A stretch of DNA of 64,000 nucleotides from NCBI GenBank assembly GCA_000002445.1, contig CH464491.1, positions 3,264,001 to 3,328,000 on the forward strand, read 5' to 3'. How positions within the stretch are numbered: position 1 is the stretch's first letter; the number at the start of each line of letters is the position of its first letter. Below the pieces are notes generated by a model, which was not told the origin of the DNA, did not search any database, and saw nothing but the letters and a program-made list of their open reading frames with translations. Source of the DNA: Trypanosoma brucei (lineage: Eukaryota). A program made the position numbers and the translations under genes. Below are positions 18,043 through 44,342 of the stretch, piece by piece.

Positions 18043-18068
18043 ATATATATATATATATATATATATAT
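18043..18068. repeat. (TA)13 microsatellite in an intergenic region
   Basis: Direct read: gtatatatatatatatatatatatatattc. Confidence 0.9.
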
Positions 18069-18362
18069 TCTGCTTTACCGTAATTGCTTTTCCTCACTTT
18101 TTTTCTTTGTCGTGGGCGCTAGCGTTTCGAGAGAAGCTGCATCTAATAAGTGGCTCCAACTGAAGCAGGTGGCACCTGTCGAAGGCAAAGAATTCATCAA
18201 GTGGCCCACGGTTTTTATTTTTTGAAGACACACTCGTAGGTGCGGCAGAAAAGGCGAGGCTGCGAACATTCACACATACAACCAAAGGAAGTAAGTGCGG
18301 TCAGTCGGGGCCGGTGCTACTCGCATAATATATTGTGTTTACCGTTTAACTATTCCTCTTTT

Positions 18363-20024
18363 ATGAGCTCCAGGATGTCACAGAAACTTCGTGGCCACTC
18401 ACTTGCGCCCAAACGGCAGAAGCCCTTGGTGAATCCCGAATTACTTCTGGCCTCACCGACGGACTCGACACGAGGTGGGAGTAAACAGTTTGTTCGTGCT
18501 TTTAATGATGACGGATGTCTTTCCACTCGTGAAGTGGGCGTGCGGTGGTTTAACTTTGCGTTGCTATCCATCTTCTACACACTTCGTTCGCAACCGTGGT
18601 CATTACTAATCACGTACACAATTCTATTGTACGTTGGAATACTATTCGTGTTCTCTGCAGCGTATGTTGTGTGGGCCCGTGGGTGTGGTGCCCAAGACGG
18701 CTCAACGTGGGTGTCCGCTCTGTATTTCACCGTTGTTAGCTTTGCGGCTAACGGTGGTTATGTTGGTGAGCAGCAAGACACCATGCTCGATCCGCATCAC
18801 GTGTGCTTTACCGGACGTACGCTCATTGTAACACTGCTTTCTTTTGGGAACATCATATTCGTCGGACTTGTTGCCGCACTCGTCGTTGGAAAGGCGGCGT
18901 ATGGCGAGGAGTTAGGTCACCGCATAGTCTTCAGTGACTTTTGCTCGCTGGCAATGGCCCCGGGTACAAAAGATCGAGACTGCTGGGACCTCACTTTTCG
19001 CATGGCTAACAGCAGTTCAAGCAAGGCACTCGCACATGGTCAGCTGCGGCTCTTCATTGTAACATCAGAGCCAACAGACAACTCAAGGCATCAACGCAAG
19101 AGGCGTAAGAGTTCAGTGGATAGAACGGAGACACGACGGCACGCCACTAGTAGTCATCATCACATTGATGACAAGAGTAAGCGATCGGGCCAGTTATCGA
19201 AACATTTGGAACACCATATAAGCGACGGTACCGTTCAGACAGAAACCCATCCGCATAGACGCGAGGGAGAACTTGATGATGTAACGAGGATGGATCGCGA
19301 ATCGAGGGAGTGGGCGGACGCCGAGTCGCATATTGTAGAGGTGTTGGCAGAGGAACACCTGAAACGGAAACGAGGTCGTGAACACACCTCTAAACGCCAA
19401 GTACTGTCGTCGCCTGCCACGAGTTCATGTAGCAGTGATGCGGATGGCGGGGCCAGTTTTGGCGGGGCTACGGGGTCGGGGTGTTCATACGTTCCCATCA
19501 ACTCACCTGAGAGTGCCCTGAAGCAAGTGTCCATTCAAGTTGAGGAATTAAGATGGACATGTTCTGGGGAGAAGCACCTCGATGGGCGGGACGGTAGACT
19601 ACTGTTATGGTTCCCAGTGGACATCACGCACACGATTAACCGTTACAGCCCGCTCTACCGCTATGTAAAGCATAATATGACTAATAGTCTTTGCACGCTG
19701 AATTCTCTGCAGGTGGCATCTCCCGCGATCCCGCAGGAAGCGATATCCGAGGAAGAGGGGGGACCAGCCGCTACCGCAGCGTTTCCCTGCTCATTTCAGC
19801 TTGTGGTAATTTTTGACGCAACTGAAATGGAAAGCGGTAGACACATTTCTGCTCGGCACACATATGCCGCGGACGACATAATAAAGCACTACAGGTTTTC
19901 CAATAAGGTGGTGCGCATGTCCCCGGAAAAGAGGGAGGTACTTGTTGACTATCACTATTTTAATGAAATGCTCTCAGATGTCGTGTCGCCTTTGCACCGT
20001 ACGGAGCGTGTTCGCACACGTTAG
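18363..20024 (+). CDS. Inward-rectifier (Kir)-like K+ channel homolog with a non-canonical selectivity filter
   Basis: Kir-like order of elements: QFVRAFNDDGC (Kir RFVxKxGxCNV-like), an outer helix, a pore region WVSALYFTVVSFAANGGYVG in place of TxGYG, an inner helix, then a cytoplasmic domain beginning VFSDFCSLAMAPGTKD (Kir VFSxxAVIA-like). The first ATG after the polyY is 18363; the ORF-track start at 18240 is a GTG. Confidence 0.65.
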   Translation: MSSRMSQKLRGHSLAPKRQKPLVNPELLLASPTDSTRGGSKQFVRAFNDDGCLSTREVGVRWFNFALLSIFYTLRSQPWSLLITYTILLYVGILFVFSAAYVVWARGCGAQDGSTWVSALYFTVVSFAANGGYVGEQQDTMLDPHHVCFTGRTLIVTLLSFGNIIFVGLVAALVVGKAAYGEELGHRIVFSDFCSLAMAPGTKDRDCWDLTFRMANSSSSKALAHGQLRLFIVTSEPTDNSRHQRKRRKSSVDRTETRRHATSSHHHIDDKSKRSGQLSKHLEHHISDGTVQTETHPHRREGELDDVTRMDRESREWADAESHIVEVLAEEHLKRKRGREHTSKRQVLSSPATSSCSSDADGGASFGGATGSGCSYVPINSPESALKQVSIQVEELRWTCSGEKHLDGRDGRLLLWFPVDITHTINRYSPLYRYVKHNMTNSLCTLNSLQVASPAIPQEAISEEEGGPAATAAFPCSFQLVVIFDATEMESGRHISARHTYAADDIIKHYRFSNKVVRMSPEKREVLVDYHYFNEMLSDVVSPLHRTERVRTR

Positions 20025-27749: not shown

Positions 27750-30170
27750 ATGAGCACATCTTTAGTAACGCTTGCCAGTGTTTTGGCTTCGGATTGCACG
27801 CATTACGCGGGGGACCCCAATTTGCTCAAAGCTGACCGATATGCAGACCGCGTGATGAAGTTACTGCAGTCTGAGCAAGCGGATCTCCTTGCGGTGCGCG
27901 TTGCCATTCATGCACAGTTGAGGGATGCTTTCAGGGACGACAGTGTTCAGAAGATGTTGAGGCCATACCTCCGCAGCGACGAAAACATTGCCGACCTTAT
28001 TGAGGATCCCAAAGCACGGGCCAAATTCTTCATGAATAAGCAGCAGGAACTACAGGCCGTTGTGATGGACAGTGCTGAGCAAGTGGCACTGAGAGACGCG
28101 CACCGCGAACTGGCAATATGGGAACGTGAAAATGCAGTGCTGCTTCGCCACCAAATGTTTATGCCTTACAAACCCTCACTCGCGCTCCTATTGGAGAGCG
28201 CTGCCACAATTGCTCTCTACCGTCAGTATGCCACTCTTGAAGAAGGACACTGCTCTAGCGACAGCAGTAGCGGGGAGGTACCGGAACAGCTCGTGAAGAT
28301 GGGAGGCGTGCCACTCTTCACATTGAAATCTGAACAGAAACCGTTCGAGGTGGACGAACACACAAAGATGTATTCCCAGCAGGTGCTACAAAACAAACGT
28401 GTAGAGTACGAAGAGAAGCGGGGGTTGGTAGCGCGTCACCGTAAGGCACTGGAGGAATGCCCATCGCTTTTCCGTTTGCAGGAGTTTATCAACGTTCGCA
28501 ATGAAATTATGCGAAAATTTGGTATCGACCGGCTTGTGTCCCTTCGCGCACGCAGGGATAAGGCACTGGCCGAACCATTTGAGGGTGGTGAGGATGTCAG
28601 CACGCGCGGCCTCCCTGCTGACAACGAAATCGTCAAGAGTCGCCGCGTTGCGCAGTATTCTTTGCCAAAAATTGTTCAGCAATGTCACAAGAACTACGTC
28701 ACAATTGTAGGGGGCGGGCCGTCAGACACAGAAGAGGGGGGAGTTCAAGTCTCCGGTGCCATAGCAACCAAGAGTGCCGCAGGCCCGCTGAAGGACTTGG
28801 AGGTGTTCCGTTACTGGTTCCTTGCCTGCATTACGGCAGATGCGCCACAAATCGGGCCCAACAAGCTCGTGGGGAAGACCTTTCCAACACTTGAAGAATA
28901 TAAGAAGATGTGGCAAGTCCAGAAGACCAGCTATGTGCCGTCTCTCAACACAACTCATAGGCAAAGCTTCGTGAAGAATGTTGCAGAACAACGTGGGCTT
29001 CCGCACATTGTCGTCCTCTCCCCGGTCACTTATTCGTACATGCAGAATAACAGTCGAGACACCGTTGTGAAGGGAGAACTTGACATGATTGTTTACGACG
29101 CTACGAATGAGAAGGTTCTTCTTATGGTTGCTGACTCTCACGATGACCGACGCCCGAGAACAGCGTTCTTAAATGCACAAGAGGAGCGCTACCGTTTTGC
29201 AGCAGTCATCCGCGCAGCGATCGTAAATGACAACGAACTTCATGACTTTCAATGTGAGGGTGTACTTGCTGAGTACTTTTTCGATCCGGATTCGGGGTCT
29301 GAAGAGAACTATTACACAATCATGGCTCCAACCAAGATCTCGCAGAAGGTAGGAACGAAAATAAACGTCCCCTTAAAGGCTCTGCAACCCTTTACCACGT
29401 GCCCGCCGCGGTACTTTATCCTCGGCTCCAACTGGGGCGTCAGCTCGGGAAATAGCAAAAATCCCCACGCCATGTCTTTTTCCCACGCTAAGTTAAACGA
29501 AGAAGCCATCTCCCTGCAGTCGCACATCCCGGAGGGCTTCATTAAGAAGAATGTGATGCCGAAGTTACTCTCGCGCAAAGAAGGACTGGAGTTGCTCGAG
29601 AACGCCAAAAGGCAACGTATAAAGGAACAGCAGCTGCAGAAATATCAGCAGCAGCAGCAACAGCAACTCAACTCCGCGCGTCCAGCGGGAGGGGCCCAAT
29701 CCACTTCGCGGCTCACTCGTTCCGTAACGAATACACCGCGCCCTACCAGTGACCTCGAAGCCGCTGCCGCAGCGGAGCTTCAGGAAGAGGAGAACGGCAT
29801 CTTGCCTGAGGAGGAGGATCCGCTGGGTCCCGTCGTCCCCGAGGATGTACTGCACCCTGTTCGCGATCTTTTACTGAGCAAACGCTTCCTTCAACCAGAT
29901 TTTTTGCAGCGCCGCTCAAAGGACCCGGAGGTGCACCAGTTGCCCGCAACGAAGGATGGGAAAATACGGACACCACTGACTGTATTTAACGAATTGATAA
30001 AATCCCGTTTCGGAGAAGAACCACCAAAGGCCTCACCTCAAACGTTGGCGGGACGCCGCGGTAGCACAAGCAACAGTGGGATTGCGGCACAGGGGCGAGC
30101 ATCGCCGTACACCCGTGCAGCTTCACTACAAAGCGATAGACTGACTTCGAGGGCGCAACGCCGGCAATAA
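27750..30170 (+). CDS. Hypothetical protein (806 aa) with a short polyQ stretch
   Basis: Long ATG-initiated ORF. QKYQQQQQQQLN tract. No catalytic motif recognised. Confidence 0.7.
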   Translation: MSTSLVTLASVLASDCTHYAGDPNLLKADRYADRVMKLLQSEQADLLAVRVAIHAQLRDAFRDDSVQKMLRPYLRSDENIADLIEDPKARAKFFMNKQQELQAVVMDSAEQVALRDAHRELAIWERENAVLLRHQMFMPYKPSLALLLESAATIALYRQYATLEEGHCSSDSSSGEVPEQLVKMGGVPLFTLKSEQKPFEVDEHTKMYSQQVLQNKRVEYEEKRGLVARHRKALEECPSLFRLQEFINVRNEIMRKFGIDRLVSLRARRDKALAEPFEGGEDVSTRGLPADNEIVKSRRVAQYSLPKIVQQCHKNYVTIVGGGPSDTEEGGVQVSGAIATKSAAGPLKDLEVFRYWFLACITADAPQIGPNKLVGKTFPTLEEYKKMWQVQKTSYVPSLNTTHRQSFVKNVAEQRGLPHIVVLSPVTYSYMQNNSRDTVVKGELDMIVYDATNEKVLLMVADSHDDRRPRTAFLNAQEERYRFAAVIRAAIVNDNELHDFQCEGVLAEYFFDPDSGSEENYYTIMAPTKISQKVGTKINVPLKALQPFTTCPPRYFILGSNWGVSSGNSKNPHAMSFSHAKLNEEAISLQSHIPEGFIKKNVMPKLLSRKEGLELLENAKRQRIKEQQLQKYQQQQQQQLNSARPAGGAQSTSRLTRSVTNTPRPTSDLEAAAAAELQEEENGILPEEEDPLGPVVPEDVLHPVRDLLLSKRFLQPDFLQRRSKDPEVHQLPATKDGKIRTPLTVFNELIKSRFGEEPPKASPQTLAGRRGSTSNSGIAAQGRASPYTRAASLQSDRLTSRAQRRQ

Positions 30171-30981: not shown

Positions 30982-31469
30982 CGTACTGGCAGGCGCATTG
31001 TCGTGCTTCGTTGTAGAAGACGTTTGTTATGTATCTAAAGAATGTGGATTGAAAGAGAGGACAAAAGGCAAGGAAGGATGGGGGAGACTTTAAAGTGCTC
31101 ATATGTACGGTTTGTGTGACAGCTAACGCCCCCGTAGTATTCTTAGTGGTCATTGTCCGACACCATGAAAAGCACTTCCAAGAGAAAAAGGGTGTTTTCC
31201 CCAAGTTGTTCTCGTAGAGTAATGGTGAGAACGCTTCTCCAACATCTGTGGTTAGCGCCTACGTCCTCCGGTACATCATTACTCTGCACTGTTTCTACTT
31301 TTTTTCTCAGACCACAAATAGAATAAAACTGTACCTTATCAGAGGCAGGCTCACGTAGTAATTCAGAAGCAAAAAAAACGCTGTTTTTCTTTTGCTAGTT
31401 TGGCTCCCTGTTCTTCAGTTCAAAGCCGCTACCTCACCATCATCACCCCGCCTCACTGACGGGGAAGCA

Positions 31470-32648
31470 ATGTCGGCGGTTGCAACCGATCCCTCTGTGC
31501 CGACGGGAAAGTCTGAAAGTGAGGCGTTAGTGGCCCAGCGAGAATGTACGTGGAAAGTTGTCAAAGCCGGAGAGGGTTTAGAACGACAACAAACATGGGA
31601 AAAGTCTTCCACACATGAAAGTACCGGCTGTCCAACACTCCCAACTGTGCGCTCAGCATCACAAGGGGGGAAAGAGGTTGAGGATACGATGAGCTCCTCA
31701 AGACGCCTAAGGTGGGGTCACCTGAGCAATGCTTCGGTGCCGGCGTTAGAGAGTGCTGCGCCGAAGGCGGGGCTAGAGGAACAAGCGCATGCCTCGGAAG
31801 TTAAGAAACCGGCTGTTCCCTGCCGTATTTCTCCAAGTGGCATTCCGGTGGAGCGTTACCGTCAAAAATTAGAGGAATGTGCTTCTCTACATCACCAGCT
31901 CCAGGAAATGGTGTCGGCACACTGCGTAACGCAGGAGCAACTTTGCGGTGTTCGAGCAGAGTGCGACTGCCTCAAGAACGAAATTGTGCGGCTTCGGGAC
32001 CTGCTAGCGACAACCACGAGCGAGTTAGGCATTCAGCAGCAGCATGTTGTTGAGCTCGAGCGAGAAAACTTGAAATTACGTGAGGAGTTGCGTGAAAAGC
32101 AAGTGGAGGGTATGACAAGCCAGAGAAAGATGAACTACATACTGTCAAATTCCACTGTGTCGCCCCAGGGTGGTGGGGTCGCGACATATACCCGCTATTC
32201 ACCGCGCCCGTCACCGGCGACATTGGTTTTGCCGGTCACTCCAACACTAATGGTGCAACCGGGTTTGACAGGGGCAAAAAATGTCTTAGATGCGGTAGAG
32301 CTATACGTGAGGGAGTGTTTTCGCACGAATGTTCTGCCACACGTAGAACTTATCCACAGTTTGTACGACGGTGGTCGTCTCGCAGCCGTTGATCCCCCTC
32401 TGACACATGCCCAGTTGAAAGCGCTTCAAAGGGTTCTTGCCGACGTTAAGTGGGAAGTGGAAGTTAGCGGAATACCCGTGGAAACCTACGTCAGTAGGAA
32501 ACCTAGGTTGCAGGGGAGAAGCCAGCGCCTGAAGGATCCAGACGGGTCGTATCCTCTGTGGTTTAATAAGTTGGAGACTCTGACATTTCGTAGCGAAAGT
32601 TGGCGTACATGTCTGGGGTTTGATTGTAGAAGATCGTACGTTCCCTGA
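31470..32648 (+). CDS. Coiled-coil hypothetical protein. It is in frame with the next ORF and separated from it by a single TGA.
   Basis: The first ATG at 31470 follows a polyY tract (31381-31460). Central heptad-rich region (VELERENLKLREELREKQVEG). The ORF-track start at 31392 is TTG. Confidence 0.55.
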   Translation: MSAVATDPSVPTGKSESEALVAQRECTWKVVKAGEGLERQQTWEKSSTHESTGCPTLPTVRSASQGGKEVEDTMSSSRRLRWGHLSNASVPALESAAPKAGLEEQAHASEVKKPAVPCRISPSGIPVERYRQKLEECASLHHQLQEMVSAHCVTQEQLCGVRAECDCLKNEIVRLRDLLATTTSELGIQQQHVVELERENLKLREELREKQVEGMTSQRKMNYILSNSTVSPQGGGVATYTRYSPRPSPATLVLPVTPTLMVQPGLTGAKNVLDAVELYVRECFRTNVLPHVELIHSLYDGGRLAAVDPPLTHAQLKALQRVLADVKWEVEVSGIPVETYVSRKPRLQGRSQRLKDPDGSYPLWFNKLETLTFRSESWRTCLGFDCRRSYVP

Positions 32649-32696
32649 AATCTGCCCGGGTACTTGGAGTTATTCGGCATTAGCGATGCTTCCACC

Positions 32697-34631
32697 ATGC
32701 AGCAACTTGCTGAAACACTCATCATGGAGCAGCATGTGGAGGCGTTGTCGCTGCCAGAAGTGGAGTTGGATGATGAGGGCCTTATTACGCTCTTTACACT
32801 CATAACACGACGTGATCACTTGGGTTCACCAAATACCAATTGGGAAACGTGCGACAACGAAAACCAGGCGTTACAGGAATCAGGCCCCGCAGCAGCTTCT
32901 GAAGCCGCTCCTAATGATGCACAGACGGAAAATAAAGAATCGGCGTCGCCGGAAGCAGGCGCTGCATTAACGCCAGTCGGTAAATCATCCCCAACTAAGA
33001 CCTTGTGGTTTGGAGTGCGCTGTCTAGACCTCAGCCGATGCAAGGTAACCGACCCCACGAATGTATTCAGTTTGTTTCGTTGCCCGGTACTTGAAGTTCT
33101 CGTGCTACCTCCTAGTAACCAGTTGGGTGATGTTCACCTGCGTGGTATTCTAGAAGGGTGTCCCCACCTGCACACGATCGATATTTCGGGTAACACAGCG
33201 TTGACTACTGCATGCGTAAAGTACATTGGCCGACACAGCACCATTAAAGTGCTCCGCCTTGAGAACTGCCCCGGAATCGACCAATTGGATTTGCCCAACG
33301 TTGAGGTGCTTTTCTCCTCCCTTTCCTACGTCATAAAACTCCATGCCCCTGAGCTTCGTCGGTTGCCTGTGCCGGTTGTCCATTCTCGCGTTTTGTTTAA
33401 CTTTAAGGCTCCAAGATTGCGGGAGATCACACTGAAGGGAATTGTTGTGGACCGTGGTACACTTGACTCCTTAAAGGAAACCGCGGGGGAGGATAGTGCT
33501 TGTGAGCCGAAGCTTGCCCGAAGTGTTCTCTCCTCGTGTGATAAGTCCGCGTACTCGGACGGACAGAAACAGAGCACTGCGGCAACAATGCAGCTCCTTT
33601 GTGCCGGTTTCATAGATTGCACGTTTACTGCTGAAAGTGAAGTGAGAGAGTTCACCAAGAAACAAAAAGCACTGTTGCGGTTCAGTCTTCACGGTTGCAA
33701 GGGCGTCGTAGATGCAAACCTTACGCGCCTTCCTGCTACGTTAATGGACCTTGATGTAAGTGACGCTGCACGATTGACTAACAGAGGCTTAGAAATAATT
33801 GCCACCACGCTACCACAGCTCATACGACTGAACCTCAAGAACGCTGGCCCACAGATCAGTAACGAGGGAATACGACTTCTGCGCGGACTTGTCAATCTGG
33901 AAGTGCTGAATCTGCTTCGCCTACCGCAAATTCTGCCGGAGGTGGTATCTGCCGTTGCGAACGACCTTCCTTGGTTGCGCAAGTTATACCACGAGACGGC
34001 CGTGGTGGGACCACGTAGTGTGGTGGCAGCAACTTCCGCACCCGTGCATCTCGACGTGTTGAGAGAAGATGATGAAGATACGACACGAAACGCTGTCGGA
34101 GAGTGTGCGAAGGAGTTGCTACAACTGCGCAATGAAACCGCACTCGCGTTTTGGATGGATGCACAACTTCCGAAACCCACGTCACTTATCCCACCGCGTA
34201 CTGCAGCAGCGGACAGCATCGATTTGAATGCGCCAAACCCGCCGCTAACAGCAAACACAACATTTTACGAAGCGGCCTGTCGTAAACTTTCGAGGAGCGG
34301 CAACGGAAGTGCATTTGGCTCTCAAAGGCGGGCAATCACTCCTCGCAACGCAGACGCTGCTGCTAACCAGAACGAGGAAAGCGAGAAGGTCAACGTATTG
34401 GTGGTTAGTAGTGGAGACGACTCGCCTCTAATGGCATCAATGTCAGGCGGTGTAGAGGGTGTGAATGCAGACTGCGGTGATGTAGATGATAAATCCTTCT
34501 CTACCGCACCAGATCAACTCAGGGCAATGGAGAATGCACTGGACGAAAAGAACAGACTAGTAATAGAAAAAAAGCCCTTGGGTCCATGGGATGAGGAAGA
34601 CCTTGTGGAGAAACACCGGAGGATCGCCTGA
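32697..34631 (+). CDS. Leucine-rich-repeat protein (F-box/LRR-like architecture)
   Basis: Repeated LxxLxLxxCxxI/L units (LRLENCPGIDQLDL, LNLKNAGPQISNEGIRLL, LEVLNLLRLPQI). The first ATG is 32697, but there is no good polyY upstream and it is in frame with the upstream ORF. Confidence 0.6.
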   Translation: MQQLAETLIMEQHVEALSLPEVELDDEGLITLFTLITRRDHLGSPNTNWETCDNENQALQESGPAAASEAAPNDAQTENKESASPEAGAALTPVGKSSPTKTLWFGVRCLDLSRCKVTDPTNVFSLFRCPVLEVLVLPPSNQLGDVHLRGILEGCPHLHTIDISGNTALTTACVKYIGRHSTIKVLRLENCPGIDQLDLPNVEVLFSSLSYVIKLHAPELRRLPVPVVHSRVLFNFKAPRLREITLKGIVVDRGTLDSLKETAGEDSACEPKLARSVLSSCDKSAYSDGQKQSTAATMQLLCAGFIDCTFTAESEVREFTKKQKALLRFSLHGCKGVVDANLTRLPATLMDLDVSDAARLTNRGLEIIATTLPQLIRLNLKNAGPQISNEGIRLLRGLVNLEVLNLLRLPQILPEVVSAVANDLPWLRKLYHETAVVGPRSVVAATSAPVHLDVLREDDEDTTRNAVGECAKELLQLRNETALAFWMDAQLPKPTSLIPPRTAAADSIDLNAPNPPLTANTTFYEAACRKLSRSGNGSAFGSQRRAITPRNADAAANQNEESEKVNVLVVSSGDDSPLMASMSGGVEGVNADCGDVDDKSFSTAPDQLRAMENALDEKNRLVIEKKPLGPWDEEDLVEKHRRIA

Positions 34632-36151
34632 GAAGGTTTGTGGTAGAGCAGGCGTGAGCGCGGCATCGGCACTTTGGTTAGTGCTGTGGTAAGCAAGGGA
34701 AAAGGAGACATGAAAAAGTAGGTGAACAAAGGAATGAATTGTTGGAGGAAATTTTCCTGGTAACCAAGGAGGGGGGAAAAGAAGAGGAGGTGTCGAAGGT
34801 AAAAACACGTTGCATATAACCCCAAGGTAACGAACTTACCCGAGGGCAGTTTACACGTGAGCCAAGGGAGCCCGTGGGTTCTGCGGAAAGGGATATTTGG
34901 GCTCCAAGTAATGCCGCACTTGCATGAAATGTAAGTATAATGTAACAGTGTGGATATCGTCAACAGCTAGCGACGACGTCTCAGAGTTTGCCTCATACGC
35001 TCCAAGTCACGGGGGTGGGCTCTCAAGTGCAGCGGCGAATGCCAAAACATGCCGCTGCGGTTAGCCAGGGATGGTGTTTCCCGTTCATGTGTTATCCCTT
35101 CATATCTTCATATTTCTCTACGGTTGACTCCCGAGTGCATATGTACGCTTCTGGGGGGAAAGTGAACAGGCAGGGAGGAAACCCGTGACATATATATATA
35201 TGTACCTGTATGTATGTGTTTATGTGTATTTTTTTTTTGCGAGGATTTGACGGTAAGTTTGTAAATATGTAGATAATTACGTTATGATGAAAGTAAATAG
35301 ACAACGAGCAAATATCTAATACGGGGGAAAGGGAGAAAATGGGAAGAAGGAATAGTGGAAGAGAGAGAGAGAGCAGCTCGGGCGACACTTTCTCGGTGTG
35401 AGCTATCATGTTTAGTGGAAGGGAAACAAATGAACGAATTGTTCCAGCGACCTACGTAAGTTTTCATCGGGTGAGCCGATGTGCCGTAAGTCACATTTCG
35501 TATGATGAATCTTTTCTCCGATAGGAAAGGGAAAGACGGGAAAGTGTCGCACACTTTTTTGCGTTGGTGCTGGTCTGGCTGGTTTCTTTTTTTCGTTTAT
35601 GTGTTTCTCTTCTGCGGAGTGCACTCCGTTTCCCATGTGCTATGTTGAGTGTATATTAAGCAGAGGTACTGGCGGCGGTGAGGAGAAAGCCCGCGATAAA
35701 GCCGTTTCGCAACTTCCGTTCTGCATGCAGCGGATGGAATTTTATTTCTTCAGGCATATATTCGCAGTTTAAGGGACAAAAGAATGAAAAGGAAATACAT
35801 CATAAGTACGTAAGCCAGTGGTGGATTCCCCGATGTCAATATTTGATTCTCCCTCCCTGAGACACGCGTTAATTCCACCATTTCTCACCCTACCTTTTTC
35901 CCACCCATACCTCATATTTAATGTAGAGCGTGTCACTACTCAGTAGTAGAAGCCATTGTGAATTGCGCTGAGGGCATTTTTGGGCCTGCGTCAGGTCAAT
36001 ACCAACCGAGAAAATCCACTGTGGGAATTGCCTACAGGTGTCATATAAATACAAGCATCGGTGTTTATAATCACTGAGGCATAAAGAGTAGTATAGCAAA
36101 ATTTTCGCCGAGGGGCCTTTTGCTGTTCAGTGCAGGGAATAATCATATACG

Positions 36152-38506
36152 ATGGACGTGGAGGAATCAGAGCAGGGTGTCAATCCTTTGTGTGATTGGG
36201 TGGCGGAACCTCCTGCAAGGGAGCAGGAAAAGGAGCAAGCTGAAGGTGCTGAAGAGATTGGACCTGAAGAACTTGACGAGTGCCATGGTGGAAATATTGA
36301 CGGAACTGTCGAAGAGGTTGTCCCCGAAAAAGAGGGCGTCGGCCCCGGTAAACATGAAAGCAGTTATATTGAAGAGCAGCCCTCTCACGGAGCAGCTGAG
36401 CATCACGAAGCGGCCGAGCACCGCGTCACAGCCGCGGCCTGCGAGGATGAAGGAATGCCGTCGTTGGCCGTTCCCGAGCCACCCAAAACCCCCACCATGA
36501 CAACCTCAGCTCGCAACCGCCGCTCGAGGACTAACGTTGGTATGCCACCGATTGCCGCAGCCAAACCAAGGGCACAGGAAGGCAAGAACGACGGTGGCAA
36601 AGCTGACAAATGTAGTGGAGGGAGGAGCGCTAGAGGCAGGTTAATTCCCAAGCAGCCGGCTCGAAACACGAGTGCAAGGCAAGGGAAGCCCCCTCTTCTG
36701 TCGCCGAGGTGGGTGAAAGAGAGGGAAACACAATATAGGATTGTGTATGGGAAGCCACAGCACCGTTACCGCGTCAAGAGAAATGTTTGTCAACATCACC
36801 CGGCGGCATGCGGTGGCACACAAAGTGGTTTGGCAGAAGATGACGCGGCACTATCTTTCTCGGGTCACATCCACAATGTGGAAAAGCAACTGCACAAGTA
36901 CCTTTGCTCATTTAATACCCAGTGCGAGGAATGTACCGAGGCAGGGCCGCTGTCAAGCTACAAAACTGTATATGGGACCAAGAAAGCTTCGACCCTCAAG
37001 GCGAAATGTGGAGAAAGTCAACCCCCATTCATCCTTGGGGATTCACCTAGGGTTTCCAACGACCCTTTGTGGAGCGTCAACCGCCAGTTGTCCGAGTACA
37101 CTAACCGTCAGCGCCTCAGCGACAGAGGTAATCCAATGGCTAACACTGAACATGACCGTTCAAGTTCAAGGGGAGTGCCTTCTGATGGCGGGTGCACGTG
37201 GAGGACGAAATCCCCTTCCACGATGTCACAGCCCCAGCAACTAGAGTACGAAACCCGGGACGAGCTTCAACATTGTGCCCGACTCTTCCTCGATCGTTTT
37301 GGCGGCTCCAGCGAACGGCGCGACCTTGGCTATAGCTATCGTTGTATCCTTTTGGGGAAGCAGAAACAACAGTGGCTCTCAGGGTCAACGAAGGGGCTCC
37401 CTGGGGTACGGTGGGCGACGAAGAAAGACTCATCTCCCCCAAGACCACCGTTTAGGCACCGCGCGCACGACAGGCGTGTATTCCAAAATGATAAGGTTCG
37501 GACAAATGCCAGCACCTCGGCAAGATCAAAAGGGGGCCGCACTGGCGAAACCAGTGCGCAAAAGCAGGCGACCAGCCCTCACCATCCAGCGGCAGACACG
37601 ACCACGTACGTCAGAGAAGACTGGGTTGCGGAGCGGGGTGCCGCAATTACACTTGAAGCTTCAAAAAGCGACGTGGAAATTCTGAGAGGTGGACCAGAGG
37701 TGAGAGAAGCAGGAACGGAGCTGTTTCCATGTGAGGGGGCTGTGGAAGAACCAGCTGGTTGCTACAAAGTTGAGGGTGAGGAGTTGATGGGCCGCCCTGA
37801 TGCTGTGGGTGTGGAGTTGGTGAGCGGCTCCGAAACCGATCGTGGAGGGATGGAAAGCCGAACTGAGACTGTGGGGGCGGCTTTGGTGAGCCGCACCGAA
37901 ACTGATTGCGAGGAACTTGGAAGCCATGGTGTAATTGAACTTGTGCAACCTTCGGGTGAGGCCGACATTGATGGAGGGGAACAGGAGGGTCACAGCAAGG
38001 TTGCGAGTGAGGGGTTGGCTAGCCAAGCTGGAGCTGACGGCGAGGAACTTGGAAGCCATGATGTAATTGAACTTGTGCAACCTTCGGGTGAGGCCGACAT
38101 TGATGGAGGGGAACCGGAGGGTCACAGCAAGGTTGCGAGTGAGGGGTTGGCTAGCCAAGCTGGAGCTGACGGCGAGGAACTTGGAAGCCATGATGTAATT
38201 GAACTTGTGCAACCTTCGGGTGAGGCCGACATTGATGGAGGGGAACAGGAGGGTCACAGCAAGGTTGCGAGTGAGGGGTTGGCTAGCCAAGCTGGAGCTG
38301 ACGGCGAGGAACTTGGAAGCCATGATGTAATTGAACTTGTGCAACCTTCGGGTGAGGCCGACATTGATGGAGGGGAACCGGAGGGTCACAGCAAGGTTGC
38401 GAGTGAGGGGTTGGCTAGCCAAGCTGGAGCTGACGGCGAGGAACTTGGAAGCCATGATGTAATTGAACTTGTGCAACCTTCGGGTGAGGCCGACAACGGT
38501 TGCTAG
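36152..38506 (+). CDS. Acidic hypothetical protein ending in about five tandem 44-aa repeats (GADGEELGSHDVIELVQPSGEADIDGGE[Q/P]EGHSKVASEGLASQA)
   Basis: ATG 36152. The 132-bp units recur with the same phase at 37919, 38051, 38183, 38315 and 38447 and are near-identical at the nucleotide level. Confidence 0.7.
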   Translation: MDVEESEQGVNPLCDWVAEPPAREQEKEQAEGAEEIGPEELDECHGGNIDGTVEEVVPEKEGVGPGKHESSYIEEQPSHGAAEHHEAAEHRVTAAACEDEGMPSLAVPEPPKTPTMTTSARNRRSRTNVGMPPIAAAKPRAQEGKNDGGKADKCSGGRSARGRLIPKQPARNTSARQGKPPLLSPRWVKERETQYRIVYGKPQHRYRVKRNVCQHHPAACGGTQSGLAEDDAALSFSGHIHNVEKQLHKYLCSFNTQCEECTEAGPLSSYKTVYGTKKASTLKAKCGESQPPFILGDSPRVSNDPLWSVNRQLSEYTNRQRLSDRGNPMANTEHDRSSSRGVPSDGGCTWRTKSPSTMSQPQQLEYETRDELQHCARLFLDRFGGSSERRDLGYSYRCILLGKQKQQWLSGSTKGLPGVRWATKKDSSPPRPPFRHRAHDRRVFQNDKVRTNASTSARSKGGRTGETSAQKQATSPHHPAADTTTYVREDWVAERGAAITLEASKSDVEILRGGPEVREAGTELFPCEGAVEEPAGCYKVEGEELMGRPDAVGVELVSGSETDRGGMESRTETVGAALVSRTETDCEELGSHGVIELVQPSGEADIDGGEQEGHSKVASEGLASQAGADGEELGSHDVIELVQPSGEADIDGGEPEGHSKVASEGLASQAGADGEELGSHDVIELVQPSGEADIDGGEQEGHSKVASEGLASQAGADGEELGSHDVIELVQPSGEADIDGGEPEGHSKVASEGLASQAGADGEELGSHDVIELVQPSGEADNGC
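37880..38506 (+). repeat. Tandem array of a 132-bp unit (about 4.7 copies, alternating Q/P variant) inside the CDS 36152-38506
   Basis: Identical strings ggaagccatgatgtaattgaacttgtgcaaccttcgggtgaggccgacattgatgg recur at a 132-nt period. Degenerate partial copies lie just upstream (about 37790-37918). Confidence 0.9.
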
Positions 38507-39048
38507 GGTGTGGTTAGTCCCACTGAGACCGGGCACGGTGGGAAAGAAGGTCTGTTTGAACGACGGTAAGGCGGGTGTCACCCACGAGGCACTAGGCGGT
38601 GCAAAAAAGCAGTCACTCACGTGTGGTCTGTTATCTCGGTTGAGCATCCGGTGAGGGGGGAAAGACTGCAGGAGAACCAAAGGGAGAAAGGGGTGTCGAA
38701 AAATTGTACCACCTACAGCTTCCAGGTAGACGGGCTGCGGGTGCGGTTTTCAAATCCTTTTGCTTCTGAACTTCACCCACACGAGAAACTGCGTTAAGGG
38801 TAAATGTGCAAAAGTTTCTGGAAATCGTGCTCGTCTTACCTCTCCCTCCCCTACGAGCACGTGCGTGGTACCACTCCAACGCGTAGAGTGTTTTGCCAAT
38901 GATTCGGTGTTATCTCTTTACACCAATCTTCTTTGACAAAGAGATGGGTATGTACATAAAAAATCATATTATCCCCCTGTATGGCGTAAAGCGTTAGAAG
39001 TGTAAGAGGGAACGGAAGGGAACAAAACGACTAGGAGAAAAGTGAAAG

Positions 39049-39877: not shown

Positions 39878-40720
39878 ATGCAGCTAAAGGAGCGCCTTCA
39901 GCAGTGGCGAGAACGGGGACTGCAGGGAGCGGATGTGGACCCACCAGTGCAGAGGCCACGCAGTTTCCGTCCTAGCTGTATAGTTCCGCGTTTGTACTTG
40001 GGCGCGGCAAAAGACGTGCAGGATGTGCGGACACTACGCAGCCGGCTTCTGCCTGACAAGTTGCTGATGGTTGTCTCCACTTGCGACCCGTCGGACCCAC
40101 CGAGGATGGAGCTTCGCCAGATTGCGCCCACGAAGGGGACCGCATACACCGTGAAGCGGTTGGCAGTGTGCTCGTGGGAGGAACTTGAGAAACGCGTTGT
40201 AACCTCCTCTTTTTGTTGCAGATTACCCCGAAATGAGGTCATGGTTGCGACGGCCGAATGGTTGAAAGAGGTCCTCAAAACAAAGTCTTTACCCCCTGTT
40301 TCTTTAGAAGAGTGCCGCGACGTGCAGAAAGGAGAAACCGACGGGAAAGTGTCTGAGGTGTTTGAGGAGGGGCTGTACCTTAAGCTCTGCTTGCCCTGGA
40401 AGGATGAAAGTAACTTCACAGTACGGCCGTACTTTGCGGTGGCGACGGCGCTTATACACGCCACCATGGATGGCATACAAGGTGCTGTCGTGTGCTACTG
40501 TATGGCGGGTAAGTCACGCTCCGCCACACTCACCTGTGCATTGTTGCTGTACTGCTGCTATGACAATGTAGGACGGCCGAAGGACGAGGAAGAATGCTCA
40601 GCTTATAAGGCAGTGCAGGCAGTCGTTGAGTTTGTGCGGGAGGTACGGCTTTGTGTTAGTCCCAACGAAGGGTTTATAGAGCAGCTGAGGGACTACGCAA
40701 GTGATTTGTTGGCGGTCTGA
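39878..40720 (+). CDS. Dual-specificity protein phosphatase (Cys-based, CX5R)
   Basis: Active-site loop VVCYCMAGKSRSATL matches CxxGxxRS of DUSP/PTP enzymes. ATG-initiated. Confidence 0.75.
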   Translation: MQLKERLQQWRERGLQGADVDPPVQRPRSFRPSCIVPRLYLGAAKDVQDVRTLRSRLLPDKLLMVVSTCDPSDPPRMELRQIAPTKGTAYTVKRLAVCSWEELEKRVVTSSFCCRLPRNEVMVATAEWLKEVLKTKSLPPVSLEECRDVQKGETDGKVSEVFEEGLYLKLCLPWKDESNFTVRPYFAVATALIHATMDGIQGAVVCYCMAGKSRSATLTCALLLYCCYDNVGRPKDEEECSAYKAVQAVVEFVREVRLCVSPNEGFIEQLRDYASDLLAV

Positions 40721-41078
40721 TTGTCGGTTGTCGATGTTGTGTCGTATTGGTACGCTCTACGTTATTTACAGTGGTTTTGCGCTGGTGTTTTGGCATAGGT
40801 GTTTCTGTTGCTTTCCATCGCGGACATCTGTGCATAGCCAAAAGGAACGTGTTGACGCTCGTTTGTTGATGCCATTTTTATTGTTGTGGGAGCTATGTTC
40901 CCTTCCACGACCGTGTGCGCCTGCGGGACTCGCTTTTCCCTTCACCCTGTTAACAAATTTCCTTTTCCAGCGCGAGGGCTCACGTGTCTCACGTTGGTTA
41001 CGCACAACACTGTAAAGGGAAGGGGTGTTTACCTCCTCCGTGCAGGAACCTGTGCAAAATTCTCAAGCAAACAAAGCG

Positions 41079-42260
41079 ATGGGTGCCAACAACATAAGGG
41101 AAGGGAGTGGTACCCCACGGGCCAAATCAAACGCGACGGAAAGTAAGGGCGGTGAAACAGTTTCAGAAGACCTGATTTCCGTGCTCCTCTGCGGGACGTG
41201 CAGGGCGCCTATCACGGACCATAACAACATTCTTGGGTGCCGTGAGGAATCCGTGTGGGCTCAGCAGGCCTTTGCGTACGAGGTAGATCTCTTTGCTGAT
41301 TGTCCGCCGCTGTGGTGCTACTCCGCTACCAACCCACAAGGCCGACGCTTTGACATCATACGCTGCACTGCGACTGCGGTAAATCGCTACCGCACGGTGA
41401 CACTGAGCGGACCGTGGTCGGGTGAACATTCCTTTTTCGTGGGTCACAAGTGGTGCTACGCTTCCTGCAATACATGTAGCAGCTTTTTGGGTTGGGCCTT
41501 CTGTAGGGCAAGTGAAGCCCTTAGCTTTAGTGGAGGTAGCACCGAGGACAATGATATCCAAATCGATGGGGGCGGTTGCGGCAGCAAAACCACTGATGAT
41601 GATGATGATAACGTGGATGAAGAAAGTATAGTCACCGTCGGGGGTAATAACAGCAACAATGTGAGCCTTCAAAGGGACGGGGCAAGTGATGATGACGGCA
41701 CTGTGGGTTTTGATCCCTCTGTTCTTTCCTTCCTCGGACTCATCGTGACTAACTGTGTGGGACGCAGCGGTTATTCGCTCAGACAGTACAATGAGCTGAT
41801 GAACGCGGACCCCCTTTTGCGACGGCGATTTGTAGGAAATTCACCGCTCGAAGACCTTCACAGTGGAGAGGACGGCAACTACTTCGTGTCGGCAACACAT
41901 TTTCTGGGACCATCCAGAGATGACCACAGCAGATTATTTGTTGGCATAGGCAGACATCGACAACTGCAGTCTTTCTTGGATGTTGTCCGAACATCTTTGC
42001 TGCCTGTTAACGCAGTCATTGGGACTGAAAGCCAGGATGGAGATGGGGAAACTTCCGAAGATGAAGCAAACAACTCGACGGCTCCCCGCACAAGCTCGCA
42101 CCGCAGTGACTCGAGCGGAGATGGTTCTGAAGATGGCGAAAATATGGGTACATCTCCGTCCTTCACTAACATTCCACCCCATTGTTTCGGCTGTGGGGAT
42201 ATGGCCGACTCCATCGATGAAGATGTTTCTTCAACTGAAGGCAGCGATAAGTCGGATTAG
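41079..42260 (+). CDS. Yippee/CULT-type zinc-binding domain protein with a long acidic, Ser/Asp-rich C-terminal extension
   Basis: Two CxxC pairs with Yippee-like spacing: CGTCRAPITDHNNILGC ... CYASCNTCSSFLGWAF (Yippee C..C...LGW signature). The ORF-track start at 41025 is GTG; the first ATG is 41079. Confidence 0.7.
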   Translation: MGANNIREGSGTPRAKSNATESKGGETVSEDLISVLLCGTCRAPITDHNNILGCREESVWAQQAFAYEVDLFADCPPLWCYSATNPQGRRFDIIRCTATAVNRYRTVTLSGPWSGEHSFFVGHKWCYASCNTCSSFLGWAFCRASEALSFSGGSTEDNDIQIDGGGCGSKTTDDDDDNVDEESIVTVGGNNSNNVSLQRDGASDDDGTVGFDPSVLSFLGLIVTNCVGRSGYSLRQYNELMNADPLLRRRFVGNSPLEDLHSGEDGNYFVSATHFLGPSRDDHSRLFVGIGRHRQLQSFLDVVRTSLLPVNAVIGTESQDGDGETSEDEANNSTAPRTSSHRSDSSGDGSEDGENMGTSPSFTNIPPHCFGCGDMADSIDEDVSSTEGSDKSD

Positions 42261-43580: not shown

Positions 43581-44342
43581 ATGGCCCAAAGCTTTGATGA
43601 CTGGCTGCAGAGTTTGAATCCCGTAACGAAAGGCGTGTTCGCCGCCGCAGTCCTCCTGACGGCAGCCATTTCCATGCATATTGCACCTTATACATACTTT
43701 ACTTTGGATACCTCTGCGATTATGGGGCTGCAATTGTGGCGACCTTTCACGGCTGCACTTTTCTTTGGTAAGTTCTCCTTCCCATGGTTAATTGCGATGG
43801 CAATGTTTGTTTCCTACCTCAAGTATAACGAGGAATACGACTACCAAGGGAAAACAGCAGATTTTGCGTGGATGCTTATTCTTGTTGTTATTGGACTGAC
43901 AGCAGGTGGGTTGTTGCTTGGGTTGCCCATCGTTAGTGGTGCTCTGCTAATGGCACTGTGCTGGGTTTTTTGTAAGCGTCACCCGCAGCTGCGCATGAAA
44001 TTGTATAGCTTCGAGTTCGATGCGAAGACGTTTCCATGGGTGTTGGCCCTGTTTCACTTTATTCTCGGTCAAAACATTCTTGAGGATGCGCTTGGTATCG
44101 TTGTGGGTCACCTCTTCTTTTTTCTTAACGATCTGATACCTTTGAAGCACGGAACAAACCCAATTGCGACACCCTCGTGGTTTGTGCGTCTCACAGGGCT
44201 TGAAAATGGCGGCGTGCGCTTTGGTGGCGTGCACGCGGGAGGACAGGCGTTTGCTGCTCGATTCGCGCGGCAACCACCACCAGCTGCCGCGGGCGGGCGG
44301 CCGCACCATTGGGGACCAGGTCACCGGCTTGGCACAACTTAA
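43581..44342 (+). CDS. Derlin (Der1-like, ER-associated degradation membrane protein)
   Basis: N-terminal WLQSLNPVTKGVFAAAVLLT and LQLWRPFTAALFFG resemble the Der1 family signatures (WY..IPPVTR / LQLWRLxTxFxFFG). Four predicted TM helices. Confidence 0.8.
   Translation: MAQSFDDWLQSLNPVTKGVFAAAVLLTAAISMHIAPYTYFTLDTSAIMGLQLWRPFTAALFFGKFSFPWLIAMAMFVSYLKYNEEYDYQGKTADFAWMLILVVIGLTAGGLLLGLPIVSGALLMALCWVFCKRHPQLRMKLYSFEFDAKTFPWVLALFHFILGQNILEDALGIVVGHLFFFLNDLIPLKHGTNPIATPSWFVRLTGLENGGVRFGGVHAGGQAFAARFARQPPPAAAGGRPHHWGPGHRLGTT

What the first reader, a model, noticed from the sequence alone, without database searches (positions are those of the whole stretch)
37790..38506. Near-perfect 132-bp (44-aa) tandem repeats forming the C-terminus of an acidic protein
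Five phase-locked copies at 37919, 38051, 38183, 38315 and 38447 are almost identical at the DNA level, with an alternating single Gln/Pro variant. That points to recent expansion, ongoing gene conversion, or a possibly collapsed assembly with the wrong copy number. Trypanosomatid tandem-repeat proteins are frequently immunodominant B-cell antigens and cytoskeleton/flagellum-associated. The reverse strand of the array is also open (ORF 37661-38680), which is an artefact of repeat periodicity.
Basis: seen in the sequence. Interest (0 to 1): 0.5.

Follow-up and report, generated by a model that had tools for sequence, protein, structure and literature searches.

The report
Tandem 44-residue repeats in trypanosome protein
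The repeat is real: four and a half near-identical 132-base units form the acidic tail of an expressed but uncharacterised Trypanosoma brucei protein, which makes it an ordinary coding minisatellite and not an assembly error or a new kind of element.

Summary
A 132-bp unit is repeated 4.45 times (37908-38495, 99% identity) at the 3' end of ORF 36152-38506 (+). A roughly 55%-identical older unit sits just upstream (37776-37907).

The window is T. brucei TREU927 chromosome 11. The ORF is exactly Tb11.01.4400 (XP_829318.1, probably Tb927.11.12550), annotated as a "T. brucei spp.-specific protein".

- **It is a real gene.** Substitutions among three subspecies are 12 synonymous to 2 non-synonymous outside the array (pN/pS 0.05). 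Published SILAC proteomics found 7 unique peptides in both life stages.
- **Copy number agrees.** T. b. gambiense and T. b. equiperdum assemblies have the same copy number, so collapse is unlikely.
- **The units evolve in concert.** Each strain has its own set of variants shared between units, sometimes in a two-unit register.
- **The gene is not truly brucei-specific.** Fast-evolving genes at the same position in T. vivax and T. grayi share a roughly 35-residue motif but lack this array.

The protein has no Pfam domain, signal peptide or membrane segment. It looks largely disordered, with an acidic-basic-acidic charge layout. Its function, localisation and antigenicity remain untested. This is an ordinary finding of low interest.

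The parts
36152..38506 (+). Coding sequence of Tb11.01.4400 (XP_829318.1; new-style ID probably Tb927.11.12550). It encodes 784 aa, 83.7 kDa, pI 4.96.
   Evidence: ORF. Exact-sequence look-up. Published location Tb927_11_01_v4:3300152-3302506(+) and 7 unique peptides in the Urbaniak 2012 SILAC table. pN/pS 0.05 among three subspecies. The new-style ID is inferred by counting from TbIRK = Tb927.11.12490 and FAZ3 = Tb927.11.12530, 91 kDa, which matches the 806-aa, 90.65-kDa ORF.
35860..35915 (+). Polypyrimidine-rich tract followed by AG dinucleotides, about 240 nt upstream of the ATG. Probably the trans-splicing signal of this mRNA.
   Evidence: Sequence read; TRF hit at 35881-35912. The function is inferred from general trypanosome mRNA processing and is not tested here.
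36152..36481 (+). Acidic N-terminal region, aa 1-110 (pI 4.1, net charge -26).
   Evidence: The T. grayi and T. vivax positional orthologues also start with an acidic stretch.
36482..37591 (+). Basic, Arg/Lys/Ser/Pro-rich central region, aa 111-480 (pI 10.2, net charge +34).
37253..37360 (+). The only segment conserved between species, aa 368-403 (TRDELQHCARLFLDRFGGSSERRDLGYSYRCILLGK). Two predicted helices.
   Evidence: BLASTP against the genes at the same position in T. grayi (E 3e-5) and T. vivax (E 5e-4). Alignment A2. Smith-Waterman scores exceed all 400 shuffles. Residues about 366-382, the first helix of this motif, are the only stretch of the AlphaFold2 model with pLDDT above 50. The motif is also present in a second T. 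vivax assembly.
37776..37907 (+). Old, degenerate repeat unit ('unit -1', aa 542-585), about 55% identical to the consensus and in register with the array.
   Evidence: Global DNA alignment score 1, against a null maximum of -5 in 500 shuffles. Blocks one and two periods further upstream are not significant. The best protein-level match of the unit is end-to-end at aa 542-585.
37908..38495 (+). Young array: 4.45 units of 132 bp (44 aa, net charge -10 per unit), 0-2 differences between full units.
38496..38506 (+). Non-repeat end of the ORF: Asn-Gly-Cys plus TAG stop.
37661..38680 (-). Spurious reverse-strand ORF (339 aa, TTG start) that is open only because the unit has no stop codon in that frame.
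   Evidence: Stop counts per frame. Only three of the 26 ORFs of at least 250 aa are on the - strand, and each lies opposite a longer + strand ORF.

Best explanation
**What is shown.**
- The feature is an in-frame coding minisatellite. It forms the acidic C-terminal tail of a genuine, expressed, fast-evolving and probably disordered T. brucei protein (Tb11.01.4400).
- A 44-residue module was duplicated at least twice in history. One old copy has decayed to about 55% identity.
- 4.45 young copies stay almost identical through recombination between units (gene conversion or unequal exchange), in one-unit and two-unit registers.
- Copy number and reading frame are the same in three subspecies.
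- The array is absent from the positional orthologues in T. vivax and T. grayi. T. congolense could not be examined, so the origin is placed after the T. vivax lineage split off, possibly only in the T. brucei lineage.

**What is inferred about function.**
- Each unit adds about -10 net charge to a flexible tail, and the array totals about -45.
- The protein also has a +34 basic centre.
- The most likely role of the tail is therefore electrostatic: it could shield or compete with the basic region, or bind basic partners, as the acidic tails of some nucleic-acid- or chromatin-binding proteins do.
- I put about 0.9 on the structural and evolutionary description and about 0.25 on this functional mechanism.
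For: - **Array and coordinates:**
- **Gene identity:** exact match to XP_829318.1 / Tb11.01.4400.
- **Purifying selection:** in codons 1-585, 12 synonymous against 2 non-synonymous variable sites among TREU927, equiperdum and gambiense. pN/pS is 0.05 and P = 1.3e-6 in the annotated frame. The other two forward frames give pN/pS of about 1.9 and 4.0.
- **Protein detected:** 7 unique peptides, 11.4% coverage, procyclic/bloodstream ratio 0.81 (Urbaniak 2012, PMC3344917 Table S1).
- **Same length in three assemblies:**
- **Concerted evolution.** Bases at units 0-4:
  - Unit position 26 (GTA/GTG) reads AGGGA in equiperdum and gambiense but AAAAA in TREU927.
  - Position 76 (CAG/CCG) reads ACAC in TREU927 but CCCC in the other two.
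  - Position 2 (GGC/GGT) reads CTCTC in equiperdum, CCCTC in gambiense and CCCCC in TREU927.
  - Position 20 (CAT/CAC) reads TCCTT in gambiense only.
- **Two-unit register:** two different sites alternate in two different strains, which points to a 264-bp dimer duplication or exchange.
- **Older unit:**
- **Synteny and homology:** the T. vivax 384-aa gene and the T. grayi 656-aa gene lie between the LRR-protein and DSP-phosphatase orthologues. They share the aa 368-403 motif but not the array.
- **Repeat gain recurs in this gene:** T. grayi carries unrelated repeats of its own elsewhere in the gene.
- **Disorder and charge layout:** mean pLDDT 37; 63% disorder-promoting residues and a maximum Kyte-Doolittle(19) value of 0.23; charge profile.
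Against: - Function is not demonstrated at all. There is no domain hit, no informative homologue in 1.8 billion representatives, and no localisation or phenotype data.
- The low pLDDT comes from a single-sequence prediction, which is often poor even for folded proteins.
- The detected peptides average about 13 residues, so they must come mostly from outside the array. The array's tryptic peptides are 31-44 residues long. Translation of the array itself is therefore inferred from the uninterrupted frame.
- Within the array, constraint is weak or unmeasurable when counted by independent mutational origins: 3 synonymous against 3 non-synonymous.
- The equiperdum assembly is mainly short-read with roughly 2x PacBio coverage and may be reference-guided. 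It is weaker support for copy number than the two Sanger assemblies.
- T. brucei is diploid, and allelic copy-number differences cannot be seen in a consensus assembly.
Confidence: 0.8

Rival explanations
1. Assembly artefact: the true locus has a different number of units (collapsed or over-expanded), and the alternating Gln/Pro pattern comes from mixing reads or alleles.
For: Near-identical 132-bp units are hard to assemble from short reads. The equiperdum assembly used 300-bp MiSeq reads plus only 7,508 PacBio reads. TREU927 is diploid, so alternating variants could in principle be a mosaic of alleles.
Against: Three assemblies from different projects give the same 2355-nt gene and 4.45 units, but with different internal variants, so they are not copies of one another. 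The array is only 588 bp. From my own knowledge, single Sanger reads and sequenced clones of the kind used for TREU927 and DAL972 can span that length.
Confidence: 0.07
2. The ORF is not a real gene: a non-coding minisatellite happens to extend a chance open reading frame in an intergenic stretch. This would fit a 'species-specific hypothetical' annotation.
For: There is no Pfam domain, no homologue found by sequence search, and the composition is low-complexity and biased.
Against: pN/pS is 0.05 with P = 1.3e-6, specific to the annotated frame among the forward frames. Seven unique peptides were detected by mass spectrometry. Homologous genes sit at the same position in T. vivax and T. grayi.
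Confidence: 0.02
3. The array's main significance is immunological or structural: like GM6, MARP and other trypanosomatid tandem-repeat proteins, this is a cytoskeleton- or flagellum-associated protein whose repeats form an immunodominant B-cell epitope.
For: Tandem-repeat proteins of trypanosomatids are generally highly antigenic, and GM6 repeats are used in serodiagnosis (PMC4303646). The TRF score is high at 1155. The protein is present in bloodstream forms. A FAZ protein gene (FAZ3) lies two genes upstream, although gene order carries no functional meaning in trypanosome polycistrons.
Against: No localisation or serology exists for this protein in anything I could search. There are only 4.45 units, few compared with the classical antigens (from my own knowledge, these have tens of copies). 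The protein has no coiled-coil or cytoskeletal domain. Antigenicity would be a side-effect of the repeats and would not explain why the parasite keeps them.
Confidence: 0.15
4. The repeat module is related to a 22-24-residue repeat of a bacterial or phage-like protein (P0010), for example by ancient common origin or transfer.
For: HMMER found P0010 at E = 9.7e-4 over query residues 592-780. The segments GEELGSHDVIELVQPSG and GESLGSHSITLAVAPSG look alike.
Against: The E-value sits at the reporting threshold and is inflated because repeat matches repeat. The periods differ (44 against about 22-24 residues). P0010 has no Pfam family. No other hit links the two proteins.
Confidence: 0.03

Closest known systems
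Trypanosomatid tandem-repeat (TR) proteins, e.g. GM6/ClpGM6 and the TR antigens catalogued by Goto and colleagues
   Same: In-frame, near-perfect long-period tandem repeats inside a large protein with no signal peptide or membrane segment, in a trypanosomatid. The Tandem Repeats Finder score is high, at 1155.
   Different: There are only 4.45 units. No cytoskeletal or calpain-type domain is present. Antigenicity and localisation are untested. The repeats are strongly acidic and sit at the extreme C-terminus of a protein whose centre is basic.
Coding minisatellites under concerted evolution (the general class)
   Same: The unit length is a multiple of three and inter-unit identity is 98-100%. 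The same substitution is spread over several units within a strain but not between strains. Edge units (0 and 4) are less homogenised than internal ones.
   Different: Copy number is identical in all three subspecies assemblies examined, whereas such arrays often vary in length. Only three assemblies were available.
Lineage-specific 'orphan' genes of T. brucei (the database label is 'T. brucei spp.-specific protein')
   Same: Sequence searches find nothing outside T. brucei, and this is the current annotation.
   Different: Genes at the same chromosomal position in T. vivax and T. grayi are demonstrably homologous over a short motif and share the charge layout. This is a fast-evolving conserved-position gene and not a true orphan. 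Only the repeat tail was found solely in T. brucei among the species I could examine.
Proteins with acidic disordered tails next to basic regions (e.g. the HMGB1 acidic tail, nucleoplasmin-type acidic tracts); a functional analogy from my own knowledge
   Same: An acidic, low-complexity, probably disordered tail lies in the same chain as a long basic region.
   Different: There is no sequence or domain relationship. Nuclear localisation is not shown, and the protein is absent from the parts of the nuclear proteome tables I could search. This is an analogy only.

Membership tests
Coding minisatellite / concerted-evolution tandem array | Head-to-tail copies of a unit whose length is a multiple of 3, keeping the reading frame open | tested here: met
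   The period is 132 = 44 x 3 with no indels. The frame is open through all units to the TAG at 38504-38506.
Coding minisatellite / concerted-evolution tandem array | Units resemble each other within a genome more than expected from divergence between genomes, with variants shared across units within a strain | tested here: met
   Variant table. For example, GTG occupies units 1-3 of equiperdum and gambiense but no unit of TREU927, and CAG occupies units 0 and 2 of TREU927 only.
Coding minisatellite / concerted-evolution tandem array | Copy-number polymorphism between strains or alleles | tested here: not met
   All three assemblies have 4.45 units. Only three consensus assemblies were available, so alleles and other strains are untested.
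Trypanosomatid tandem-repeat antigens | High-scoring in-frame tandem repeat in a protein-coding gene (from memory, catalogues used a TRF score cut-off of about 500) | tested here: met
   TRF score 1155. The gene is translated.
Trypanosomatid tandem-repeat antigens | Recognition of the repeat by sera from infected hosts | not testable with these tools
   No serological data were found for Tb11.01.4400 or Tb927.11.12550.
Trypanosomatid tandem-repeat antigens | Cytoskeletal or flagellar localisation (common but not universal) | not tested
   The TrypTag supplementary text held here contains no entry for the gene. No localisation was found.
T. brucei species-specific (orphan) gene | No homologue at the corresponding locus in other trypanosomes | tested here: not met
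   The T. vivax gene L003:7492-8646 and the T. grayi gene L005:6213-8183 lie between the same neighbours and are homologous. All three pairwise scores exceed 400 shuffles.
Intrinsically disordered protein | No stable predicted fold; composition biased towards disorder-promoting residues | tested here: inconclusive
   Mean pLDDT is 37, with 763 of 784 residues below 50, but the prediction used a single sequence. Disorder-promoting residues make up 63% and GRAVY is -0.84.

The most novel reading that the evidence does not exclude
The gene belongs to an unrecognised, fast-evolving family that keeps its chromosomal position across Trypanosoma. The family is defined by a short helical motif (C-x2-L-x-L-x-R ... 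L-G-Y-S-Y-x-C-I) and an acidic-then-basic charge layout. Different lineages repeatedly gain their own internal tandem repeats: a 132-bp acidic tail in T. brucei, and 75-bp and 87-bp repeats in T. grayi. On this reading, repeat gain would be an adaptive way of tuning the charge or valency of a disordered regulator, for example a nucleic-acid-binding or condensate-forming protein.
Probability: 0.12. Interest if true: 0.4.

Novelty: new member of a known kind. Interest (0 to 1): 0.2.

Why it matters
The practical value is modest.

- **Gene status.** A gene labelled 'hypothetical, T. brucei-specific' turns out to be a real, constrained and expressed gene with homologues at the same position in other trypanosomes. 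That corrects an orthology annotation.
- **Experimental handle.** The 35-residue conserved motif gives experimenters a defined target.
- **Recombination example.** The array is a clean, small case of concerted evolution in a diploid parasite. It could serve as a strain marker or as a model for recombination between repeats.
- **Diagnostics.** If the 44-mer proved antigenic, it might be a Trypanozoon-restricted serological marker, provided T. congolense also lacks it. That is untested.

Nothing here challenges current understanding.

Tried and rejected
- **Pfam** scans of the protein and of both positional orthologues found no family.
- **Word-indexed search** of 5.8 billion proteins with the full protein found only the T. 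brucei cluster.
- **Profile search** with the Tb/Tg/Tv alignment again found only the T. brucei cluster.
- **Exhaustive HMMER** against 1.84 billion representatives found only the protein itself plus P0010 at E = 9.7e-4. I regard P0010 as chance similarity between repeats.
- **T. congolense** could not be examined. Its DSP orthologue (P0005, TCIL3000_11_13140) has no contig on record.
- **Logan short-read contigs** carrying the T. brucei DSP gene start just upstream of that gene and do not reach the array.
- **Literature.** No main text mentions Tb11.01.4400 or Tb927.11.12550.
- **Supplementary files** of TrypTag, Dejung 2016, the nuclear proteome, the cell-cycle phosphoproteome and the structure-based annotation paper contain no entry in the text held here. 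Many of those files are truncated, so absence means little.
- **Two further papers** (the Urbaniak 2013 phosphoproteome and Alsford 2011 RIT-seq) are not held.
The single-sequence model is too poor for a fold search, so none was run.
- **My first guess at the new-style gene ID** (about Tb927.11.12780) was wrong; that ID is ribonucleotide reductase R2.
Full report
**1. The observation**

Tandem Repeats Finder reports a single strong array in this part of the window: 37908-38495, period 132, 4.5 copies, 99% matches, no indels, score 1155. It is the only long-period array in the whole 64 kb.

There is at most one mismatch, and no hit in 100 shuffled windows.

The fifth copy is truncated, so there are four full units plus about 0.45 of a unit. 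After the array only three codons (Asn-Gly-Cys) and TAG remain.

The alternating CAG/CCG (Gln/Pro) codon is real. Unit 0 also differs at one more codon, GGT against GAT.

The reverse ORF 37661-38680 exists. The unit is free of stop codons in just two of six frames: the coding frame and that one reverse frame.

Directly upstream, the 132 bp at 37776-37907 align in register with the consensus at about 55% identity. The score is 1, against a maximum of -5 in 500 shuffles. Blocks one and two periods further upstream do not align. At protein level, the best match of the unit to the rest of the protein is end-to-end on residues 542-585. The array therefore has one old, decayed unit and 4.45 young ones.

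**2. What the sequence is**

The ORF 36152-38506 (784 aa) is an exact match to XP_829318.1 / EAN80206.1, Tb11.01.4400 of T. brucei brucei TREU927. UniProt names it 'T. brucei spp.-specific protein'.

A published table places it at Tb927_11_01_v4:3300152-3302506(+), so the window is chromosome 11, 3264001-3328000.

All 23 non-overlapping ORFs of at least 250 aa are on the + strand, as expected for a trypanosome polycistron. The three - strand ORFs of that size each lie opposite a longer + strand ORF.

Neighbouring genes fix the new-style numbering:
- TbIRK (18240-20024) is Tb927.11.12490.
- FAZ3, 91 kDa, is Tb927.11.12530. It matches the 806-aa, 90.65-kDa ORF at 27750-30170.
- The old IDs Tb11.01.4380 and Tb11.01.4390 (LRRP) directly precede Tb11.01.4400.

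The target is therefore very probably Tb927.11.12550. This ID is inferred by counting and was not looked up.

**3. Is it a real gene?**

Yes, on three independent grounds.

- **Purifying selection.** I compared TREU927 with the T. b. equiperdum (L001) and T. b. gambiense (L002) loci. The 585 non-repeat codons carry 12 synonymous and 2 non-synonymous variable sites. pN/pS is 0.05 and P = 1.3e-6 against neutrality. The other two forward frames give pN/pS of about 1.9 and 4.0.
- **Protein detected.** Urbaniak et al. 2012 (PMC3344917, Table S1) identified the protein with 7 unique peptides and 11.4% coverage. The procyclic/bloodstream ratio was 0.81, so it is made in both life stages. The array's own tryptic peptides would be 31-44 residues long. 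The detected peptides must therefore come mostly from the non-repeat part, and translation of the array is inferred from the unbroken frame.
- **Homologues at the same position in other species** (section 5).

A pyrimidine-rich tract followed by AG lies about 240 nt upstream of the ATG. That is where a trans-splice signal would be expected (inference).

**4. Is the copy number right, and how does the array evolve?**

The gambiense and equiperdum genes are also 2355 nt with 4.45 units. They are not copies of the reference, because each has its own unit variants.

Bases at units 0-4, in the phase starting at 37908:

| Unit position | Codon | TREU927 | equiperdum | gambiense |
|---|---|---|---|---|
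| 2 | GGC/GGT | CCCCC | CTCTC | CCCTC |
| 20 | CAT/CAC | TTTTT | TTTTT | TCCTT |
| 22 | GGT/GAT | GAAAA | GAAAA | GAAAA |
| 26 | GTA/GTG | AAAAA | AGGGA | AGGGA |
| 54 | GCC/ACC | GGGGG | GGGGG | AGGGG |
| 76 | CAG/CCG | ACAC | CCCC | CCCC |

What this pattern shows:
- The same substitution in two or three units of one strain, and in none of another, is the signature of sequence exchange between units. Independent identical mutations are a far less likely cause.
- Two different sites alternate with a two-unit period in two different strains. This suggests that the last expansion or exchange involved a 264-bp dimer.
- The edge units (0 and 4) are the least homogenised, as is usual for such arrays.

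Assembly collapse is therefore unlikely. From my own knowledge, the 588-bp array is also within reach of single Sanger reads, the technology used for TREU927 and DAL972.

The equiperdum assembly is weaker support. It used MiSeq 2x300 reads plus only 7,508 PacBio reads (PMC6395869). Allelic variation in this diploid organism cannot be judged from consensus assemblies.

**5. Is it 'T. brucei-specific'?**

Sequence searches say so:
- only the T. brucei cluster in 5.8 billion proteins;
- only itself plus one borderline bacterial-type repeat protein in an exhaustive HMMER scan of 1.84 billion representatives;
- nothing new with a profile.

Gene order says otherwise. Using the downstream dual-specificity phosphatase as an anchor, I fetched the T. 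vivax and T. grayi loci.

In both species a gene with no Pfam family lies between the LRR-protein orthologue and the phosphatase. For T. vivax the LRR protein was confirmed at 48% identity. The genes are:
- T. vivax, 384 aa (L003:7492-8646);
- T. grayi, 656 aa (L005:6213-8183).

Both match the T. brucei protein at residues 368-403:

| Species | Motif region |
|---|---|
| T. brucei | TRDELQHCARLFLDRFGGSSERRDLGYSYRCILLGK |
| T. grayi | DAFRRCLQQLLERTNSSNNSGTTPELGYSYSCILSSK |
| T. vivax | SRGTFQSCIKLLLERDTAAEPTNLTFSYMCITALRHK |

The BLASTP E-values are 3e-5 and 5e-4 for the single comparisons. All three pairwise Smith-Waterman scores exceed every one of 400 shuffles.

The motif is unchanged in a second T. 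vivax assembly. It also overlaps the only stretch of the AlphaFold2 model with pLDDT above 50, residues about 366-382 at the start of two predicted helices.

All three proteins start with an acidic stretch followed by a basic body.

Neither orthologue has the acidic 44-residue array. T. grayi instead has two unrelated tandem duplications of its own: 75 bp x 2.1 and 87 bp x 2.0.

The gene is therefore a fast-evolving positional orthologue, and the array arose after the T. vivax lineage split off. T. congolense could not be examined, so it is not known whether the array is confined to the T. brucei lineage.

**6. The protein and a likely mechanism**

There is no Pfam domain, no signal peptide, no membrane segment (maximum Kyte-Doolittle(19) value 0.23) and no GPI-type C-terminus.

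The composition is 63% disorder-promoting residues, with GRAVY -0.84. The single-sequence AlphaFold2 model has mean pLDDT 37. This is consistent with disorder but not proof of it.

The charge is sharply partitioned:

| Residues | pI | Net charge |
|---|---|---|
| 1-110 | 4.1 | -26 |
| 111-480 | 10.2 | +34 |
| 481-784 | about 4.1 | -59 |
| Array only (586-784) | 4.05 | -45 |
| One unit | 4.05 | -10 |

My best mechanistic reading is that the array is a modular way of lengthening a flexible polyanionic tail. Such a tail could interact with, or compete for, the basic centre or basic partners. This is inference from charge layout only, and I give it about 0.25.

That rests on a true generalisation (PMC4303646) but on no data for this protein. 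With 4.45 units and no signal peptide or membrane segment, I give it about 0.15 as the main significance.

**7. Comparison with what is known, and verdict**

This is a coding minisatellite of the ordinary kind, inside an annotated but uncharacterised trypanosome gene. It joins the known class of trypanosomatid tandem-repeat proteins.

It does not meet the 'species-specific orphan' definition once gene position is considered.

The small new points are:
- evidence that the ORF is constrained;
- the conserved motif and the positional orthologues;
- the two-phase history and two-unit register of the array.

None of this is surprising to a specialist. Interest is 0.2, and the classification is a new member of a known kind.

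Noticed in passing
window 32580-32720 (LRRP gene, ORFs 31392-32648 and 32664-34631, same frame): TREU927 has three single-base insertions within about 45 bp (near 32615, 32630 and 32658, in short homopolymer runs) relative to both T. b. gambiense and T. b. equiperdum. The net +3 restores the frame, but the shifted stretch contains an in-frame TGA at 32646-32648. This splits what the other two subspecies annotate as one 1052-aa leucine-rich-repeat protein. It could be a reference sequencing error or a strain-specific lesion.
   Followed up: partly
window 40426-40571 (DSP phosphatase gene 39878-40720) versus L002:10272-10277: T. b. gambiense DAL972 lacks about 142-146 bp inside the dual-specificity phosphatase gene. 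The deletion removes the CYCMAGKSRS (CX5R) active-site loop and shifts the frame, giving an annotated product of 219 aa instead of 280 aa. T. b. equiperdum is intact. It may be a real pseudogenisation or an assembly defect.
   Followed up: partly
L005:6306-6472 and L005:7141-7317 (T. grayi positional orthologue): The T. grayi gene at the same position carries two tandem duplications of its own: 75 bp x 2.1 in the acidic N-terminus and 87 bp x 2.0 in the middle. They are unrelated to the T. brucei unit, and an ambiguous base lies in the second one. Repeat gain seems to recur in this gene.
   Followed up: partly
P0010 (670 aa, source unknown) versus window protein residues 592-780: This is the only non-trypanosome hit in 1.84 billion representatives, at E = 9.7e-4. 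It is a protein made of 22-24-residue repeats of the type SPTGIASLEALGTHxI, whose GESLGSHSITLAVAPSG resembles GEELGSHDVIELVQPSG. It has no Pfam family. I judge it a chance similarity amplified by repeats.
   Followed up: partly
window 41025-42260 (+): The 411-aa ORF downstream of the phosphatase gives a weak Yippee/Mis18 zinc-binding match (E 1.7e-4, 22.1 bits, below the 26.6-bit gathering score).
   Followed up: no
window 56597-57379 (-) and 57431-58231 (-), opposite ORF 55278-58202 (+): Two long reverse-strand ORFs (260 and 266 aa) lie opposite the 974-aa PH-domain gene. The region has unusually high GC skew (0.19) and AT skew (0.18). They are probably another composition-driven artefact of a purine-rich coding stretch.
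   Followed up: no
window 18042-18068: A perfect (TA)13.5 microsatellite lies about 170 bp upstream of the TbIRK (Tb927.11.12490) ORF.
   Followed up: no
bioRxiv 10.1101/2021.12.10.472056: In one section this preprint writes the oligopeptidase B gene ID as Tb927.11.12580 in places and Tb927.11.12850 in others. By my count Tb927.11.12580 would be the DER1-like gene in this window (43581-44342), so 12580 is probably a typo there.
   Followed up: no
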